NCBI GenBank assembly: GCA_004296775.1
Contig: RHGE01000010.1
Location: 39,250 to 103,249, forward strand
Direction: 5' to 3'
DNA: 64,000 bases
Source: Marinilabiliaceae bacterium JC017
GTDB lineage: Bacteria > Bacteroidota > Bacteroidia > Bacteroidales > Marinilabiliaceae
Shown: positions 2,622 through 52,441 of the stretch, in pieces
Layout of the letters: each line of letters starts with the position of its first letter
Numbering within the stretch: the first letter of the stretch is position 1
Notes under the pieces: generated by a model
The model's database searches: none
What the model saw: only the letters and a program-made list of their open reading frames with translations
Told to the model about the DNA's origin: nothing
Position numbers and translations under genes: made by a program

Positions 2622-4127
2622 TTGCTTATCTGCCAATTACAAATCCTTATGAAACGAAATAAAATTCAATTTAAGTTATTAATCCTTCCATTATTGATGC
2701 TGTTTGGTTGTGGAAAAGGATCTAAAAAGAGCGAAAAGCCATTCAATGTCCTCTATTTTCTGGTGGATGATATGGGATGGATGGATGCTAATTATCAGGG
2801 TTCTTCCTTTTACGAAACACCCAATATTGATCAGTTAGCCACGGAGGGTATGCGCTTCAGCAATGCTTATGCAACCCATCCCCGTTGTACGCCCTCCCGT
2901 TATTCACTCATTACCGGACGCTATCCGGCCAGGGCCCAGATGCCCGGACCGGGAGAAGGGAAACTGAAAGCTCCGGGCAATATAAAGTTGCGTCCCGGTG
3001 ATGAAGGGAAATTAAAAGCCGATGAATATACCCTGGCCAATGCTATGAAAGATGGCGGTTATGCTACTTTTTTTGCCGGGAAATGGCACCTGGCAACGGC
3101 TGGTACCTTACCCCAGGATGTGGGATTTGATGTGAATATCGCCGGTGGCCATGCCGGATCGCCGATCTCTTATTTCTATCCCTATAATGTGGGTCCTCAG
3201 GCCGGGAAGAAAAGCCCTATTGAAGGCCTGGAAAAAGGGGAAGAAGGGGAATACCTGACCGATCGTATTACCGATGAAACCATTCATTTCCTGGAGCAAC
3301 ATTGTACCGAGTATCCCGAACAACCTTTCCTGGCTTATGTGTCACATTATGCCATTCATGAACCTTTGCAGGCAAAAGAGGCTTATATTAAAAAGTTCCG
3401 GGAGAAATTAAAGACCATGAAATATGATGGTCCGGAGTTTATTCCGGAAGGGACCGGAACAACCAAAATGCGACAAGATGATCCGGTTTATGCTGCCATG
3501 ATCTACAGCATGGATGAGAGCCTGGGACGGATCACCCGGACATTAGAGAAGCTGGGGCAGCTGGACAACACCATCATCATCTTTTTCTCTGATAACGGGG
3601 GACTCTCCAACCGGGGCTTTAATCCCAGGCGAGTGGCTACCTCCAATATTCCGCTGCGGGCCGGGAAAGGACACCTCTATGACGGAGGAGTGCGGGAACC
3701 CATGATTGTTAAATGGCCGGGGGTTACCCAGCCCGGAACTAAATCCGATGCCATGGTTACCGGAACCGATTTCTTCCCCACCATACTCGAAATGGTTAAC
3801 CAGCCTTTAAAGCCAAAGGCGCATTTGGATGGGCAAAGCTTTGTCTGGGCGCTTCAGAATAAATCCAATCCCCATGAAGAGCGGGCTATCTTCTGGCATT
3901 CGCCCGTGGCGCGGCCACATGCCACCGGTGATATCAATTGTACCGCGGTGCGAAAAGGACGCTATAAGCTTATTGAGTTTTACGATGAGCACCGCGCCGA
4001 ATTATATGATCTGGAAAACGACCTGGAAGAGGCACATGATTTATCGGAGCAATTACCTGGAGTAAGGGATGAATTACTGACATTGATTCACGACTGGCGT
4101 AAGGATGTGCACGCCTGGGTGAAATAA
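2622..4127 (+). CDS. Cys-type sulfatase (arylsulfatase-A-like). The start codon is more likely the Met at 2649.
   Basis: Contains 'YFLVDDMGWMD...CTPSRYSLITGRYPAR' and 'FFSDNGG'. A signal peptide follows the Met at 2649. It is a paralog of the gene at 21526-23022. Confidence 0.9.
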   Translation: MLICQLQILMKRNKIQFKLLILPLLMLFGCGKGSKKSEKPFNVLYFLVDDMGWMDANYQGSSFYETPNIDQLATEGMRFSNAYATHPRCTPSRYSLITGRYPARAQMPGPGEGKLKAPGNIKLRPGDEGKLKADEYTLANAMKDGGYATFFAGKWHLATAGTLPQDVGFDVNIAGGHAGSPISYFYPYNVGPQAGKKSPIEGLEKGEEGEYLTDRITDETIHFLEQHCTEYPEQPFLAYVSHYAIHEPLQAKEAYIKKFREKLKTMKYDGPEFIPEGTGTTKMRQDDPVYAAMIYSMDESLGRITRTLEKLGQLDNTIIIFFSDNGGLSNRGFNPRRVATSNIPLRAGKGHLYDGGVREPMIVKWPGVTQPGTKSDAMVTGTDFFPTILEMVNQPLKPKAHLDGQSFVWALQNKSNPHEERAIFWHSPVARPHATGDINCTAVRKGRYKLIEFYDEHRAELYDLENDLEEAHDLSEQLPGVRDELLTLIHDWRKDVHAWVK

Positions 4128-4255
4128 ATAATTGCTTTAAACTTTAGTAATTGGCCGGGAATCAATTTGTGCTATTTGATAGCTGAAGATGTTATGAAGG
4201 TACAAATAAGCATGGTTTAAATCGGTCTAATATCTATTGTCTAAAACCTAATGAT

Positions 4256-6336: not shown

Positions 6337-6499
6337 TTAACGGTTATTGGTTATATAATTATCCGTTGTCATTACAGGTTTGGTTTATAGATAACTGCGA
6401 ATGATTTGAAAATTAGTATAGCTAAATCCAAATCAATTTATCGGTTAAAATATAGAATTCCTATTGAAGTTGAATCCATGATTTTATAATCGGGGTTTC

Positions 6500-6712
6500 T
6501 ATTGTGTAATTACATTCCGACTTCGGGAAATTCCGTTAAGAAAATTGGGGCTTGAACCGTAAAGAAATCAGGTCTGTTTGAGCGGAGCGAGTTACCTGAT
6601 TTTAGGGGCAGGGCTCAATTTTTAGGGATTTAACGTTAGCGGCGGCATTTTTTGTTTACTTTTTTTTACTGTTGAAAAAAAGTAAAAGCCTGCGCGGCTT
6701 GAGCGCAAAGAG
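6500..6712 (+). ncRNA. Candidate structured non-coding element, copy 1. It has three hairpins, including a conserved 20-nt loop 'ctgtttgagcggagcgagtt'.
   Basis: Stem 6563-6571 pairs with 6594-6602 around the conserved loop. A hairpin spans 6655-6687 (tttactttttttt / aaaaaaagtaaa). A hairpin spans 6692-6708 (tgcgc ggcttga gcgca). A second copy at about 43150-43390 has compensatory changes in these stems. Confidence 0.4.
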
Positions 6713-35673: not shown

Positions 35674-35699
35674 ATGACTTCTAAAGTCAGGAATTAATA

Positions 35700-35735
35700 A
35701 AAAGAGACTGTCGCTGGGCAGTCTCTTTTTTTTAG
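35700..35735 (+). terminator. Rho-independent terminator.
   Basis: agagactg...cagtctct stem followed by a T8 run. Confidence 0.7.
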
Positions 35736-42629: not shown

Positions 42630-43149
42630 TAGGGTTTAGGTGCTTAGGAAGCAGCTTTTACCAACATGTTGTTCAAATTGGATGGAAATACGTGGAGAAA
42701 GGTGGAAATAGACAGCACTTTCCATTATTAACCTCGAAGAACAATCAGCTTAAGGCAATCTCCCTAGAAAAGGTTTTTTTAGGCAGTGCTGAAAAACATA
42801 GACTTTTAGATTACAATAGTTCGTTAAACTTTTGTAAGTAATTGAAAAACTGTTTGTATTTGCTCAATAAATGAAGTTATTAATGGCTTAAGAATGAAAG
42901 TAATGTAAATCGGTCTAACGTCTATTATCTAAAATCTAACGATCTATTTTGATTATGGATTTGAGATAAATTGATAAGGAAGGTAGGGAAGCGTGGTGCT
43001 AAAACAGTAAGCACCACCTTCTGATTATTTTTTTTGATATATCTCAAATCATTAATGTCCTAAATAATTAAAGGTTCAAGCAAATAGAATTAATAGCTAC
43101 AGTGTATTAGTGATATTTTTGGAATATAGAGGCTTAACTGGATATTCCG

Positions 43150-43390
43150 CCTTCAAGAAATAACGTATAGAAATTTAACGGATTGGAGCGTTAAGAAAGA
43201 AAATCTGTTTGAGCGGAGCGAGTTATTTTCTTTCAGTGGAAAGGAGTTAAATTTTAGTTATTTATTGAGAGTCCCGAATAAGCTTTTGTTGTTTTTGCAT
43301 CAAAAGCTTACAAAGTTATAATCGGGATCGTTTTTTGTTTACTTTTTTTCGCTGTAGCAAAAAAGTAAAAGCCCGTGCGGCTTGAGCACA
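43150..43390 (+). ncRNA. Candidate structured non-coding element, copy 2.
   Basis: It has the same conserved loop 'ctgtttgagcggagcgagtt' at 43205-43224. Its flanks are different but still complementary (gaaagaaaat / attttctttc). Hairpin tttacttttttt...aaaaaagtaaa. Hairpin gtgc ggcttga gcac. An extra 9-bp stem lies at 43282-43311. Confidence 0.4.
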
Positions 43391-47912: not shown

Positions 47913-48199
47913 CTGAAGTTCATTACTTCACTAAACAATTATGTGAAAACAGCATTAAGCGATACTCGTCTGTTTGGCTTAAAAACAGACAGTCTCGAGG
48001 TAACCTAGAAAGTATAAGAACTTCCAAGATGAAGTCTTTTACTTTTTTTAAAGTGCCGAAGGTTTATATCCGGAACTTTTCACTTTGGAAGAACTAAATG
48101 ACCAGAGTCTTGTGTACCTGTGCTTCCGTTATCGAAGGATGGTATTGTGAATGCTGTTTTTCCTTTTTAAAAAGAAGAAAAACTAAAATCTAAATAATT

Positions 48200-51908: not shown

Positions 51909-52441
51909 CTGTTTTTTTTTGCGGAATCTAAGGTTTTTGTTTCAATTCTCAAACGCAAGGTGCCGCTTATTTGGATTATGAATCTTTATTGGTTTCGATA
52001 TCTTTAATAGTCAGTGATTATGAAAAGTTTCTAAAAAGTGAAGAATTCGTTCATAAAGTAAAAAAAGTGTACGACTTAATGTTGTTTTACCCTTTTATTA
52101 AATACTTTTGCCGTCGTTTTGGTGACCTCAGGGATATTCATTCCTGAAGTTGAAAAGGGAATACCGTGAGAACCGGTAACAGTACCCGCTGCTGTGATTC
52201 CTGTGATAGTTTTAGTTATTCTCCGCCACTGTTAGCATAAATTAGTTAATGGGAAGGCAACTAAAACCGGGATAAGTCAGAAGACCTGCCAATATAATAT
52301 AGTATATCCGTCCGCTTTCGGGATTAAATGCTGGATATTAACTGTTTGTTAGTTATCTCTGTTTCCTGTTTGATTGATAATGAGTCCGTCTATTGATGGA
52401 GTAATATCAATTGTTAGTTAAGTGCCGGGTGTATTTTATTA

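What the first reader, a model, noticed from the sequence alone, without database searches (positions are those of the whole stretch)
6500..6712. Roughly 200-bp structured element present twice, with compensatory base changes in three hairpins (candidate novel cis-regulatory or small RNA)
Copy 1 is at 6500-6712 and copy 2 at 43150-43390. They share a 20-nt block, ctgtttgagcggagcgagtt, that sits as the loop of a 9-10-bp stem. The stem sequence is completely different between the copies but still complementary: aaatcaggt/acctgattt versus gaaagaaaat/attttctttc. A downstream hairpin (tttacttttttt..aaaaaagtaaa) is conserved with a different loop. A third hairpin shows a C:G to T:A compensatory pair (tgcgc-ggcttga-gcgca versus gtgc-ggcttga-gcac). 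Covariation of this kind indicates selection on RNA or DNA secondary structure rather than on primary sequence. Both copies lie in long 5' intergenic regions upstream of + strand polysaccharide-degrading genes (sulfatase 7008, amylase 43514).
Basis: seen in the sequence. Interest (0 to 1): 0.7.

Follow-up and report, generated by a model that had tools for sequence, protein, structure and literature searches.

The report
Cross-phylum structured intergenic repeat element
The two look-alike 200-250 bp stretches are real copies of a hairpin-forming repeat family found in many bacterial phyla; here they were inserted between neighbouring genes and are not a dedicated switch for sugar-degrading genes, and the family is not in Rfam and how it works is still unknown.

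Summary
Two copies (6514-6707 and 43144-43389, + strand) share an invariant 20-mer on top of a 10-bp stem whose sequence is entirely different but still complementary. They also share a T-run plus pyrimidine/purine hairpin and a small GC hairpin with one compensatory change.

It is multi-copy in some genomes, absent from viral contigs and from E. coli, and matches no Rfam 15 family.

Stem covariation across 97 distinct copies is very strong. The "loop" is itself structured: CUGUYUGA-[GC-GNA-GC mini-hairpin, which covaries and varies in length]-GAGUU.

In related genera the same gene pairs (deacetylase/sulfatase, GH31/amylase) are contiguous, with gaps of 34 and 9 nt and no element. Both copies are therefore lineage-specific insertions. 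Family members sit next to unrelated genes, favour gene 3' ends, have no conserved promoter and no associated protein.

Best reading: an uncatalogued REP/MITE-like structured interspersed repeat, not a regulator specific to polysaccharide genes. Whether it acts as single-stranded DNA or as RNA is unresolved.

The parts
6514..6707 (+). Copy 1 of the repeat element (whole conserved unit)
   Evidence: Extent of similarity to copy 2. Cap hairpin scores 55.7 bits with model R1.
6533..6635 (+). Copy 1, long hairpin 1. Outer stem is CGTTAA/GAAAATTG .. CAATTTTT/TTAACG, then a large internal loop, then inner stem P1 and the cap.
   Evidence: Minimum-free-energy fold. The CGTTAAGAA ... TTYAG internal-loop motif is shared with other phyla.
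6564..6603 (+). Copy 1, inner stem P1 (6564-6573 with 6594-6603) enclosing the cap
   Evidence: Inverted repeat I8. Family covariation.
6574..6593 (+). Copy 1, invariant 20-nt cap CTGTTTGA-GC-GGA-GC-GAGTT
6648..6686 (+). Copy 1, T-run (6648-6654) plus pyrimidine-arm/purine-arm hairpin S2 (6655-6666 with 6675-6686)
   Evidence: (I4). The same module occurs across phyla.
6691..6707 (+). Copy 1, third hairpin TGCGC-GGCTTGA-GCGCA. On the - strand it is followed by a T-run and so looks like a terminator.
43144..43389 (+). Copy 2 of the repeat element (whole conserved unit)
   Evidence: Cap hairpin scores 59 bits with model R1.
43171..43254 (+). Copy 2, long hairpin 1. Outer stem is AAATTTAAC/GTTAAATTT, which is compensatory relative to copy 1. 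Then an internal loop with GAGCGTTAA ... CAGTGG, then P1 and the cap.
   Evidence: (I11, I10).
43205..43224 (+). Copy 2, invariant 20-nt cap
43272..43327 (+). Copy 2 only: nested extra hairpin (TCCCGA..AAGCTTTTG..CAAAAGCTT..TCGGGA) inserted between hairpin 1 and the 3' module
   Evidence: Gap in the pairwise alignment. Inverted repeats I2 and I3.
43331..43369 (+). Copy 2, T-run plus hairpin S2 (43338-43348 with 43359-43369)
   Evidence: (I8).
43375..43389 (+). Copy 2, third hairpin GTGC-GGCTTGA-GCAC. Terminator-like on the - strand.

Best explanation
Both loci are copies of one widespread, non-coding, non-autonomous interspersed repeat family of the REP/MITE kind.

Anatomy:
- A ~10-bp stem P1 of free sequence carries an invariant purine-rich cap, CUGUYUGA-[mini-hairpin, usually GC-GNA-GC]-GAGUU.
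- Below P1 there is usually an internal loop with a conserved motif (here CGTTAAGAA / TTYAG) and an outer stem.
- Downstream lie a pyrimidine run and a pyrimidine-arm/purine-arm hairpin.
- An optional GC hairpin follows (here with loop GGCTTGA).

Shown: in this genome (Marinilabiliaceae bacterium JC017) the two copies are lineage-specific insertions that pushed apart gene pairs that are contiguous in related genera. They are old and diverged copies, not a recent duplication.

Inferred mechanism: the family spreads within and between genomes in trans. The spreading agent would be an unidentified enzyme or host process that recognises the cap displayed on a hairpin of one extruded strand, most simply single-stranded DNA, as for REP/RAYT or IS200/IS605 ends.

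Also inferred: when a copy lands inside an operon it is co-transcribed and its stable hairpins become part of the mRNA. In the sense orientation seen here, the + strand has no hairpin-plus-U-tract terminator. In the antisense orientation, the third hairpin plus T-run would look like a terminator. This would explain why copies in operons are mostly sense.

Any effect on the sulfatase and amylase genes would be a by-product of insertion, not a dedicated regulatory design.
For: Family size and spread:
They come from Bacteroidota, Nitrospirota, Nitrospinota, Bacillota, Pseudomonadota, Campylobacterota, Bdellovibrionota (Oligoflexia), Acidobacteriota, Patescibacteria, Ignavibacteriota and Fusobacteriota.
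- Several genomes hold multiple near-identical copies, and matches often lie near contig ends.
- The covariance model gives 139 hits in 100 loci.

Insertion in this lineage:
- The 78%-identical sulfatase locus L119 has a 34-nt gap after the deacetylase remnant.
- Carboxylicivirga L121 has GH31 and amylase 9 nt apart.
- Model R1 finds no cap hairpin in L119-L123.

No gene link:
- No recurrent neighbouring protein, no tRNA or tmRNA link, and no transposase between paired copies.

Placement typical of REP/MITE repeats:
- Convergent 32 versus divergent 9 intergenic regions (p = 0.0004); tandem sense 36 versus antisense 20 (p = 0.044).
- No promoter motif at a fixed offset.

Structure:
- P1 covariation score 0.743 versus 0.194 in shuffles and at most 0.244 in slid controls.
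- Mini-hairpin changes GC/GC to CC/GG, CU/GG and GU/GC. The middle base of the triloop is free (GGA, GAA, GCA, GTA). The hairpin can be lengthened.

Hints for the DNA level:
- No excess of G.T over A.C mismatches in P1 (28 versus 37; 25 versus 19 outside the Nitrospirota type).
- From prior knowledge, C(GNA)G is the classic extra-stable DNA mini-hairpin.
- In Arcicella the module is carried inside a ~250-bp element with terminal inverted repeats.
- Some copies are truncated exactly after GAGTT.

Orientation and polarity:
- Terminator-like sites occur only on the - strand of both window copies.
Against: - No mobilising enzyme, target-site duplication or defined termini were found for the window subfamily. 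The only candidate terminal inverted repeats (6445-6468/6754-6777 and 43050-43067/43405-43422) are AT-rich, imperfect and unrelated to each other.
- An invariant 20-nt core shared across phyla is unlike REPs, which are species-specific (PMC6006769).
- Orientation relative to local GC skew shows no clear bias (83 versus 97). IS200-like single-strand transposition would predict one.
- Tandem G.A pairs, GNA/GNRA-like loops, a variable-length P2 and a pseudoknot stem that covaries in a subset are equally typical of functional RNAs.
- The modest sense bias fits an RNA role.
- Zero hits in 2.9 million viral contigs leaves the route of cross-phylum spread unexplained.
Confidence: 0.55

Rival explanations
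1. The element is a co-transcribed structured RNA module. It would work in the mRNA, in a 3' UTR or between cistrons, as a barrier to exonucleases, a processing site or an insulator. Its fold would combine the cap hairpin (tandem G.A plus a GNA-capped helix) with a 3' U-rich pseudoknot or triplex. It would be spread by horizontal transfer because it is useful.
For: - De-duplicated sense bias in tandem contexts, 36 versus 20, and enrichment at gene 3' ends (32 versus 9).
- Both window copies are sense, inside former operons.
- The conserved non-Watson-Crick features are purine-rich, so they are meaningful on the + strand only.
- P2 varies in length, as in RNA families.
- A pseudoknot stem S1 covaries (CTTGAT/ATCAAG, CTTGAC/GTCAAG, GGCAG/CTGCC, TCGCC/GGCGA) in 15 of 47 modules.
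- In some asymmetric cases the upstream pyrimidine run mirrors the purine arm, as a parallel triplex requires (L021, L034, L064, L125).
Against: - The sense bias is weak (64%).
- No G.U excess over A.C.
- The triplex mirror test is inconclusive (19 versus 11, with 54 ties).
- The window copies lack S1.
- The Arcicella carrier places a bidirectional terminator upstream of the module.
- No Rfam relative.
Confidence: 0.27
2. The element is an independently transcribed small RNA gene family, that is, paralogous trans-acting sRNAs like FopS/GibS of Bacteroides.
For: - Multi-copy, intergenic and about 200 nt, with conserved single-stranded-looking motifs (GGCTTGA, the cap).
- In copy 2 a perfect TAnnTTTG box lies 24 nt upstream (43113-43120).
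- In locus L034 a genuine FopS gene lies next to an element.
Against: - No promoter motif at a fixed offset in 73 low-GC copies. Copy 1 has none.
- No terminator on the + strand.
- The FopS hit is a separate, convergent gene downstream of the element, not the element itself.
- The family extends to phyla with different promoter types.
Confidence: 0.06
3. The element is a gene-specific cis-regulatory leader (riboswitch- or attenuator-like) for the downstream polysaccharide-degrading genes.
For: - Both copies lie 124-300 nt upstream of co-oriented CAZyme or sulfatase genes.
- The structure is conserved.
Against: - It is absent upstream of the orthologous genes in relatives.
- Downstream genes across the family are unrelated and often on the opposite strand.
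- There is no expression platform such as a terminator or start-codon sequestering helix on the + strand.
Confidence: 0.03
4. The element is selfish or neutral palindromic DNA with no function of the hairpin as such. The apparent covariation would arise from mutational correction of quasi-palindromes (template switching between arms), not from selection on a folded molecule.
For: - P1 arms are mostly perfect, with symmetric G.T and A.C error rates.
- Whole elements in Bacillota are long fold-back palindromes.
Against: - It cannot explain the invariant asymmetric 20-nt cap across phyla.
- It cannot explain the conserved ~10-bp length of P1, the conserved non-Watson-Crick flanks of the GCGAGGA[cap]CCGCAGC subtype, or the covarying mini-hairpin.
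Confidence: 0.07

Closest known systems
REP / REPIN elements mobilised by RAYT (TnpA-REP, HUH Y1) enzymes
   Same: Short, non-coding, hairpin-forming and multi-copy. Extragenic with a preference for gene 3' ends, often in inverted pairs, with no terminal inverted repeats of the DDE type. Presumed to be recognised as single-stranded hairpins.
   Different: REPs are 20-65 nt with a 2-5 nt loop and a 5' GT[AG]G or CGTC guide tetranucleotide. They are species-specific (PMC6006769, PMC3733652). This family has none of those tags. It has a 20-nt structured cap that is identical across phyla and a 3' pyrimidine/purine hairpin module, and no RAYT gene was seen near any copy.
Structured bacterial MITEs (ERIC/IRU, Correia/NEMIS, BOX, RUP)
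   Same: 100-350 bp, fold into long hairpins, modular with optional internal pieces, inserted in transcribed intergenic regions, and can change mRNA processing depending on orientation.
   Different: Those families are confined to a genus or family and are defined by their termini. Here the termini differ between lineages while an internal module is constant. ERIC was compared directly and is unrelated.
IS200/IS605 subterminal hairpins and their ORF-less derivatives (PATEs)
   Same: No terminal inverted repeats and no obvious target duplication. Small hairpins lie near both ends of the unit, with possible single-strand recognition.
   Different: The left and right small hairpins of this element are not alike. 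No conserved cleavage tetranucleotides, no TnpA/TnpB nearby, and no clear orientation bias relative to GC skew.
Integron attC sites
   Same: Recognised as a folded single strand. The stems covary while the structure is kept. They lie just downstream of ORFs.
   Different: In attC the conserved parts are the stem-proximal R''/R' cores (RYYYAAC / GTTRRRY) and the apex is variable, which is the opposite of this element. Copies here occur in both orientations and not in co-oriented arrays.
d(GCGNAGC) extra-stable mini-hairpin, and tandem sheared G.A (K-turn-like) motifs
   Same: The cap core GA-GC-GNA-GC-GA has exactly this composition. The middle loop base is free and the G and A are kept.
   Different: These are generic structural motifs, not a family. 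A canonical K-turn (3-nt bulge flanked by a Watson-Crick C-stem) cannot be drawn (see the membership test).
H-type pseudoknots with a U-rich loop over an A-U helix (SAM-II/SAM-V, telomerase RNA, ENE-like triplexes)
   Same: The order of strands in the 3' module (S1a, U-run, S2a, S1b, S2b) and its composition.
   Different: No Rfam match. S1 is absent in the window copies and the triplex register test is inconclusive.

Membership tests
Any Rfam 15 family (including FopS RF04319 and GibS RF04182) | Covariance-model score at or above the gathering threshold over the element | tested here: not met
   There is no hit on either window copy, even at E up to 10, and none on 20 family loci. The FopS hit in L034 (75.9 bits) covers 4067-4139 on the - strand. 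That is an adjacent, convergent gene outside the element.
REP / REPIN | GT[AG]G or CGTC guide tetranucleotide at the foot of the hairpin | tested here: not met
   The foot of P1 is CGTTAAGAA or variable sequence, and there is no GTAG. CGTC appears only as an occasional variant of CGTTAA.
REP / REPIN | Short hairpin with a 2-5 nt loop and species-specific sequence | tested here: not met
   The apex is a 20-nt structured cap, identical in about ten phyla.
REP / REPIN | A cognate RAYT gene flanked by the repeats | tested here: inconclusive
   No recurrent protein lies within about 4 kb of 237 loci. Genes between inverted pairs are TIR-NB-ARC, Uma2, RelA_SpoT and Maf. Whole genomes could not be searched.
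MITE (DDE-type) | Terminal inverted repeats plus a target-site duplication | tested here: inconclusive
   Arcicella has clear terminal inverted repeats, AAACATGAGTCATCCCGAATTT / rc, on a ~250-bp unit. Peptococcaceae elements are fold-back with 21-bp terminal repeats. The window copies have only weak, AT-rich, mutually unrelated candidates. No duplication was established.
MITE / mobile repeat in general | Presence/absence polymorphism at orthologous sites, and several near-identical copies in one genome | tested here: met
   The element is absent from the orthologous gaps in L119 and L121. Near-identical copies occur in Arcicella, Saprospiraceae SGMAG-41, Peptococcaceae and Nitrospirales.
Integron attC | R'' RYYYAAC and R' GTTRRRY cores at the base, variable apex, co-oriented arrays | tested here: not met
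   The base is variable and the apex conserved. Paired copies are in inverted orientation.
Intrinsic (Rho-independent) terminator | GC-rich hairpin followed directly by a U-tract on the transcribed strand | tested here: not met
   There is none on the + strand of either copy. A terminator-like site exists only on the - strand (third hairpin plus T-run).
Kink-turn | 3-nt bulge, then tandem G.A/A.G, with a Watson-Crick C-stem directly 5' of the bulge | tested here: not met
   Tandem GA next to P2 is present. The positions that should form the C-stem (C1 U2 G3 versus G18 U19 U20) cannot pair in register. This comes from inspection of the invariant cap.
ERIC / IRU | Sequence similarity to the 127-bp ERIC consensus | tested here: not met
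   An E. coli ERIC copy was retrieved and read. Its apex and arms are different. No cap-bearing copy exists in 5,426 E. coli genomes.
Independently transcribed Bacteroidota sRNA | TTTG / TAnnTTTG promoter at a fixed distance, plus a terminator | tested here: not met
   Promoter motif counts are flat across 73 low-GC copies. There is no + strand terminator.
H-type pseudoknot with major-groove triplex | Covarying S1, and a loop-1 pyrimidine pattern parallel to the purine strand of S2 | tested here: inconclusive
   S1 of at least 5 bp occurs in 15 of 47 modules, with different sequences, but not in the window copies. The parallel register scores better than the antiparallel one in 19 cases, worse in 11, and ties in 54.

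The most novel reading that the evidence does not exclude
The cap hairpin plus 3' pyrimidine/purine module is a previously undescribed, cross-phylum functional nucleic-acid module. It would be either the recognition element of an unknown single-strand-acting mobilisation system shared by distant phyla, or a new class of structured RNA (a tandem-G.A junction plus pseudoknot or triplex) that rides on different lineage-specific carriers.
Probability: 0.3. Interest if true: 0.8.

Novelty: new variant of a known kind. Interest (0 to 1): 0.6.

Why it matters
For this window, the finding removes a false lead. The two elements are insertions, not a shared riboregulator of sulfatase and amylase genes. 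Their presence does mark places where former operons were split by 670-880 nt of extra DNA.

More generally, a 20-nt motif kept identical from Bacteroidota to Nitrospirota, Bacillota, Fusobacteriota and Betaproteobacteria is unusual for bacterial repeats, especially as everything around it turns over with compensation. It implies a conserved partner: an enzyme, a host factor or a tertiary fold.

The family is abundant in gut and environmental metagenomes, matches often lie near contig ends in draft assemblies (which may reflect assembly breaks), and it has no model in Rfam. A model would improve annotation and could lead to the missing partner.

Tried and rejected
- Rfam at gathering and at permissive thresholds, on the window and on 20 family loci: nothing on the element.
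- FopS/GibS lead: the hit in L034 is a neighbouring gene (PMC11697453).
- Literature searches by sequence fragments and by topic: nothing relevant. The REP/RAYT papers describe different elements.
- ERIC similarity recalled from memory: checked and rejected.
- tmRNA or tRNA association (one locus has tmRNA upstream): not general.
- Complementarity or similarity of the cap to E. coli rRNA, tRNA-Ile/Ala or 5S: nothing beyond chance.
- Viral contigs: 0 hits. Plasmid BLAST with the window copy: none. E. coli: none.
- Associated protein search by all-against-all BLAST of flanking ORFs: only locus orthology and ABC ATPases.
- RNAfold's pairing inside the cap (G3-C15 and others) is contradicted by the natural variants, while the GC-GNA-GC mini-hairpin is supported.
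- G.U versus A.C strand test: uninformative.
- Triplex mirror test: inconclusive.
- GC-skew orientation test: not significant.
- A third copy suggested by a 14-mer match at 48034: not a copy.
- My first orientation count (69% co-oriented) was misleading. Convergent and divergent contexts fix the class regardless of the element's strand. I recomputed on tandem contexts only, after de-duplication.

Full report
**Observation**

The two regions were read directly.
- The 20-mer CTGTTTGAGCGGAGCGAGTT occurs only at 6574-6593 and 43205-43224, both on the + strand. Shuffles give zero expected matches, even allowing three mismatches.
- It is flanked by perfect inverted repeats of unrelated sequence: GAAATCAGGT/ACCTGATTT and GAAAGAAAAT/ATTTTCTTTC.
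- The pairwise alignment has 78% column identity over about 6486-6712 versus 43125-43390. Copy 2 carries a 51-nt nested hairpin.
- The second hairpin with its upstream T-run is found only at 6648-6690 and 43331-43373.
- The third hairpin shows the stated C:G to T:A exchange.
- A covariance model of the stem plus 20-mer (R1) scores the two sites at 59 and 55.7 bits. Nothing else in the window scores above 19 bits.
- Pfam confirms the context: sulfatase, sulfatase, polysaccharide deacetylase, [copy 1], sulfatase; and GH31, [copy 2], GH13 amylase.

**A large family**

A metagenome scan returned another 120, again at the limit.
- The genome titles span Bacteroidota (Arcicella, Saprospiraceae, Xylanibacter, Sphingobacterium, Flavobacterium, Bacteroides, Tannerella), Nitrospirota, Nitrospinota and Bacillota (Peptococcaceae, Lachnospiraceae, Selenomonas, Tissierella).
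- They also span Beta- and Gammaproteobacteria, Campylobacterota, Oligoflexia, Thermoanaerobaculia, Saccharimonadales and Ignavibacteriales.
- BLAST against plasmids added Ralstonia megaplasmids and the Ilyobacter (Fusobacteriota) chromid.
- There were no hits in 2.9 million viral contigs and none in 5,426 E. coli genomes.
- In every locus the 20-mer sits on a stem whose sequence differs between lineages.
- Several genomes hold many near-identical copies, and many matches lie near contig ends. Model R1 finds 139 copies in 100 loci.

**Structure**

On a gapless alignment of 97 distinct 44-nt cores (A2):
- The 10-bp stem is paired in 82.9% of cells against 52.8% after shuffling.
- The covariation score is 0.743 against 0.194, and no slid control exceeds 0.244.
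- All four Watson-Crick pairs occur at nearly every position.

The 20-mer is not a loop.
- Natural variants show a two-base-pair mini-hairpin, G9-C15/C10-G14. It changes to C-G/C-G, C-G/U.G or G-C/U.G.
- Its triloop keeps G and A while the middle base is free (GGA, GAA, GCA, GTA), or it becomes GUAA/GUUA.
- In some copies the mini-hairpin is replaced by a 5-7-bp hairpin (L045, L051).
- The invariant parts are therefore CUGUYUGA on the 5' side and GAGUU on the 3' side, with GA/GA abutting the mini-helix. This arrangement suggests tandem sheared G.A pairs.
- RNAfold's alternative pairing inside the cap is contradicted by these variants.
- A canonical K-turn cannot be drawn.

Other conserved features:
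- Below P1, the window's subfamily shares CGTTAAGAA ... TTYAG(Y)GG with copies from Campylobacterota, Gammaproteobacteria, Ignavibacteriota and Clostridia.
- Another subfamily keeps the non-complementary flanks GCGAGGA[cap]CCGCAGC across Nitrospirota, gut Bacteroidales, Oligoflexia and Patescibacteria.
- Downstream, most non-Bacillota copies have a pyrimidine run, then a hairpin with a pyrimidine 5' arm and a purine 3' arm.
- In 15 of 47 distinct modules the loop of that hairpin pairs with a segment upstream of the pyrimidine run. The sequences differ (CTTGAT/ATCAAG, CTTGAC/GTCAAG, GGCAG/CTGCC, TCGCC/GGCGA), which gives an H-type pseudoknot topology. The window copies lack this stem.
- I tested whether the pyrimidine run mirrors the purine arm, as a parallel triplex would need. 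The result is inconclusive: 19 for, 11 against, 54 ties.
- The third hairpin with loop GGCTTGA recurs with four different stems (window x2, L178, L194). It is present in only 19 of 109 distinct tails.

**What it is not**

- No Rfam 15 family matches the element at any threshold tried.
- One locus gave a strong FopS hit. The alignment shows that FopS is a separate convergent gene ending where the element ends (FopS biology from PMC11697453).
- ERIC, which I recalled as possibly similar, is unrelated.
- REP/RAYT criteria (guide tetranucleotide, short loop, species specificity; PMC6006769) are not met.
- attC has the opposite pattern of conservation.
- Searches of the paper library by sequence and by topic found no description.

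**Context here and elsewhere**

The window is from Marinilabiliaceae bacterium JC017, with 100% protein matches.
- In the nearest available relative of the sulfatase locus (78% identity), the deacetylase remnant ends 34 nt before the sulfatase start.
- In Carboxylicivirga sediminis, GH31 and the amylase are 9 nt apart.
- R1 finds no cap hairpin in any of the five orthologous loci.
- Both window copies therefore lie in lineage-specific expansions of 671 and 884 nt between genes that were probably co-transcribed.

Across the family:
- No neighbouring protein recurs beyond locus orthology, and there is no tRNA or tmRNA link.
- Genes enclosed by inverted pairs in Nitrospirales are accessory or defence-type, not transposases.
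- After removing orthologous duplicates, copies lie in convergent rather than divergent intergenic regions 32 to 9 (p = 0.0004). In tandem contexts they are sense 36 to 20 (p = 0.044).
- No Bacteroidota promoter motif is positioned relative to the element.
- In both window copies a terminator-like hairpin plus T-run exists only on the minus strand. An antisense insertion in an operon would therefore probably be polar. That could by itself produce the modest sense bias.

**DNA or RNA**

The conserved non-Watson-Crick features are purine-rich, so only the + strand can form them. This holds for either nucleic acid.

For DNA:
- P1 shows no excess of G.T over A.C.
- From prior knowledge, C(GNA)G is the classic very stable DNA mini-hairpin.
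- In Arcicella the module rides inside a ~250-bp element with terminal inverted repeats. In Peptococcaceae the whole unit is a fold-back with 21-bp terminal repeats.
- A few copies end exactly after GAGTT (L071, L009, L104), as if that junction were a break or exchange point.

For RNA:
- The variable-length P2, the covarying pseudoknot stem, the sense bias, and the enrichment at gene 3' ends.

Local GC skew gives no clear orientation signal. I could not settle this.

**Verdict**

Well supported: the two elements are diverged members of a very widespread, structured, non-coding interspersed repeat family. They were inserted into two operon-like gene pairs in this lineage. They are not a regulator specific to polysaccharide genes.

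Inferred: the family is propagated in trans through recognition of the cap on an extruded single strand, and insertions in operons are tolerated mainly in the non-terminating orientation.

The family is closest in kind to REP/REPIN and structured MITEs. It differs in that its conserved part is an internal, cross-phylum-invariant cap rather than its ends. I rate it as a new variant of a known kind. About 30% probability remains that the module is something new in its own right: an unknown mobilisation system or a new RNA class.

Noticed in passing
window 52103-52307 (+): Cobalamin riboswitch aptamer (RF00174), 99.4 bits, E = 1.2e-23. It is unrelated to the finding.
   Followed up: no
window 42993-43035 (+): GC-rich hairpin GTGGTGCT..AGCACCAC followed, after about 10 nt, by a run of eight T. 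It lies about 360 nt past the GH31 stop and about 110 nt before copy 2. It looks like a terminator, but the pattern scan did not list it because the T-run is too far from the stem. The 884-nt gap therefore holds more than the element.
   Followed up: partly
window 6463-6475 (+): ATTGAAGTTGAAT, 130 nt past the deacetylase stop, matches the last codons (IEVE*) of the deacetylase remnant in relative L119. It may be a displaced remnant of the ancestral gene end, or it may be chance.
   Followed up: partly
window 43272-43327 (+): A 51-56-nt nested hairpin is present only in copy 2, between hairpin 1 and the 3' module. Similar optional GC hairpins are inserted at the equivalent place in Arcicella (GCGGTCCGCCGCGCGG in L011, L018, L023) and in Nitrospirales copies.
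   Followed up: partly
window 43113-43120 (+): A perfect Bacteroidota -7 promoter box, TATTTTTG, lies 24 nt upstream of copy 2. Copy 1 has no counterpart and the family shows no positional enrichment.
   Followed up: yes
L034 4067-4139 (-): A genuine FopS sRNA gene (RF04319, 75.9 bits) converges on the element and ends where the element ends, in a ruminant Bacteroides MAG.
   Followed up: yes
L026 3029-3426 (+): A tmRNA gene lies about 200 nt upstream of an element copy in a Porphyromonadaceae genome. The link is not general: 33 other loci have none.
   Followed up: yes
Arcicella loci, e.g. L018 3000-3260 and 4960-5215, L117, L107: A ~250-bp element with terminal inverted repeats AAACATGAGTCATCCCGAATTT / rc. 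It contains a bidirectional terminator hairpin, then the cap hairpin and pseudoknot module. It may have a TA target duplication in some copies.
   Followed up: partly
L013, L050, L073, L075 (Nitrospirales): Inverted pairs of elements bracket accessory or defence-type genes (TIR-NB-ARC-TPR, Uma2 endonuclease, RelA_SpoT small synthetase). L013 also holds a third copy whose mini-hairpin is replaced by a longer insert.
   Followed up: partly
L071 2293, L009 353, L104 5488, L037 6159: Copies keep the family-typical 5' half and the cap, but foreign sequence follows directly after GAGTT. This points to a recurrent breakpoint at the junction of the cap and the 3' arm.
   Followed up: no
Metagenome loci L131, L135, L139, L145, L151, L162, L167 and others: About 14 human-gut metagenome contigs carry the GCGAGGA[cap]CCGCAGC subtype at the same locus, next to a CoaX-like kinase and an outer-membrane protein gene. 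In that gut species the copy is fixed.
   Followed up: no
window 35696-35733 (both strands): A generic palindromic hairpin gives the third-best R1 score (18.9 bits). It is not a family member.
   Followed up: no
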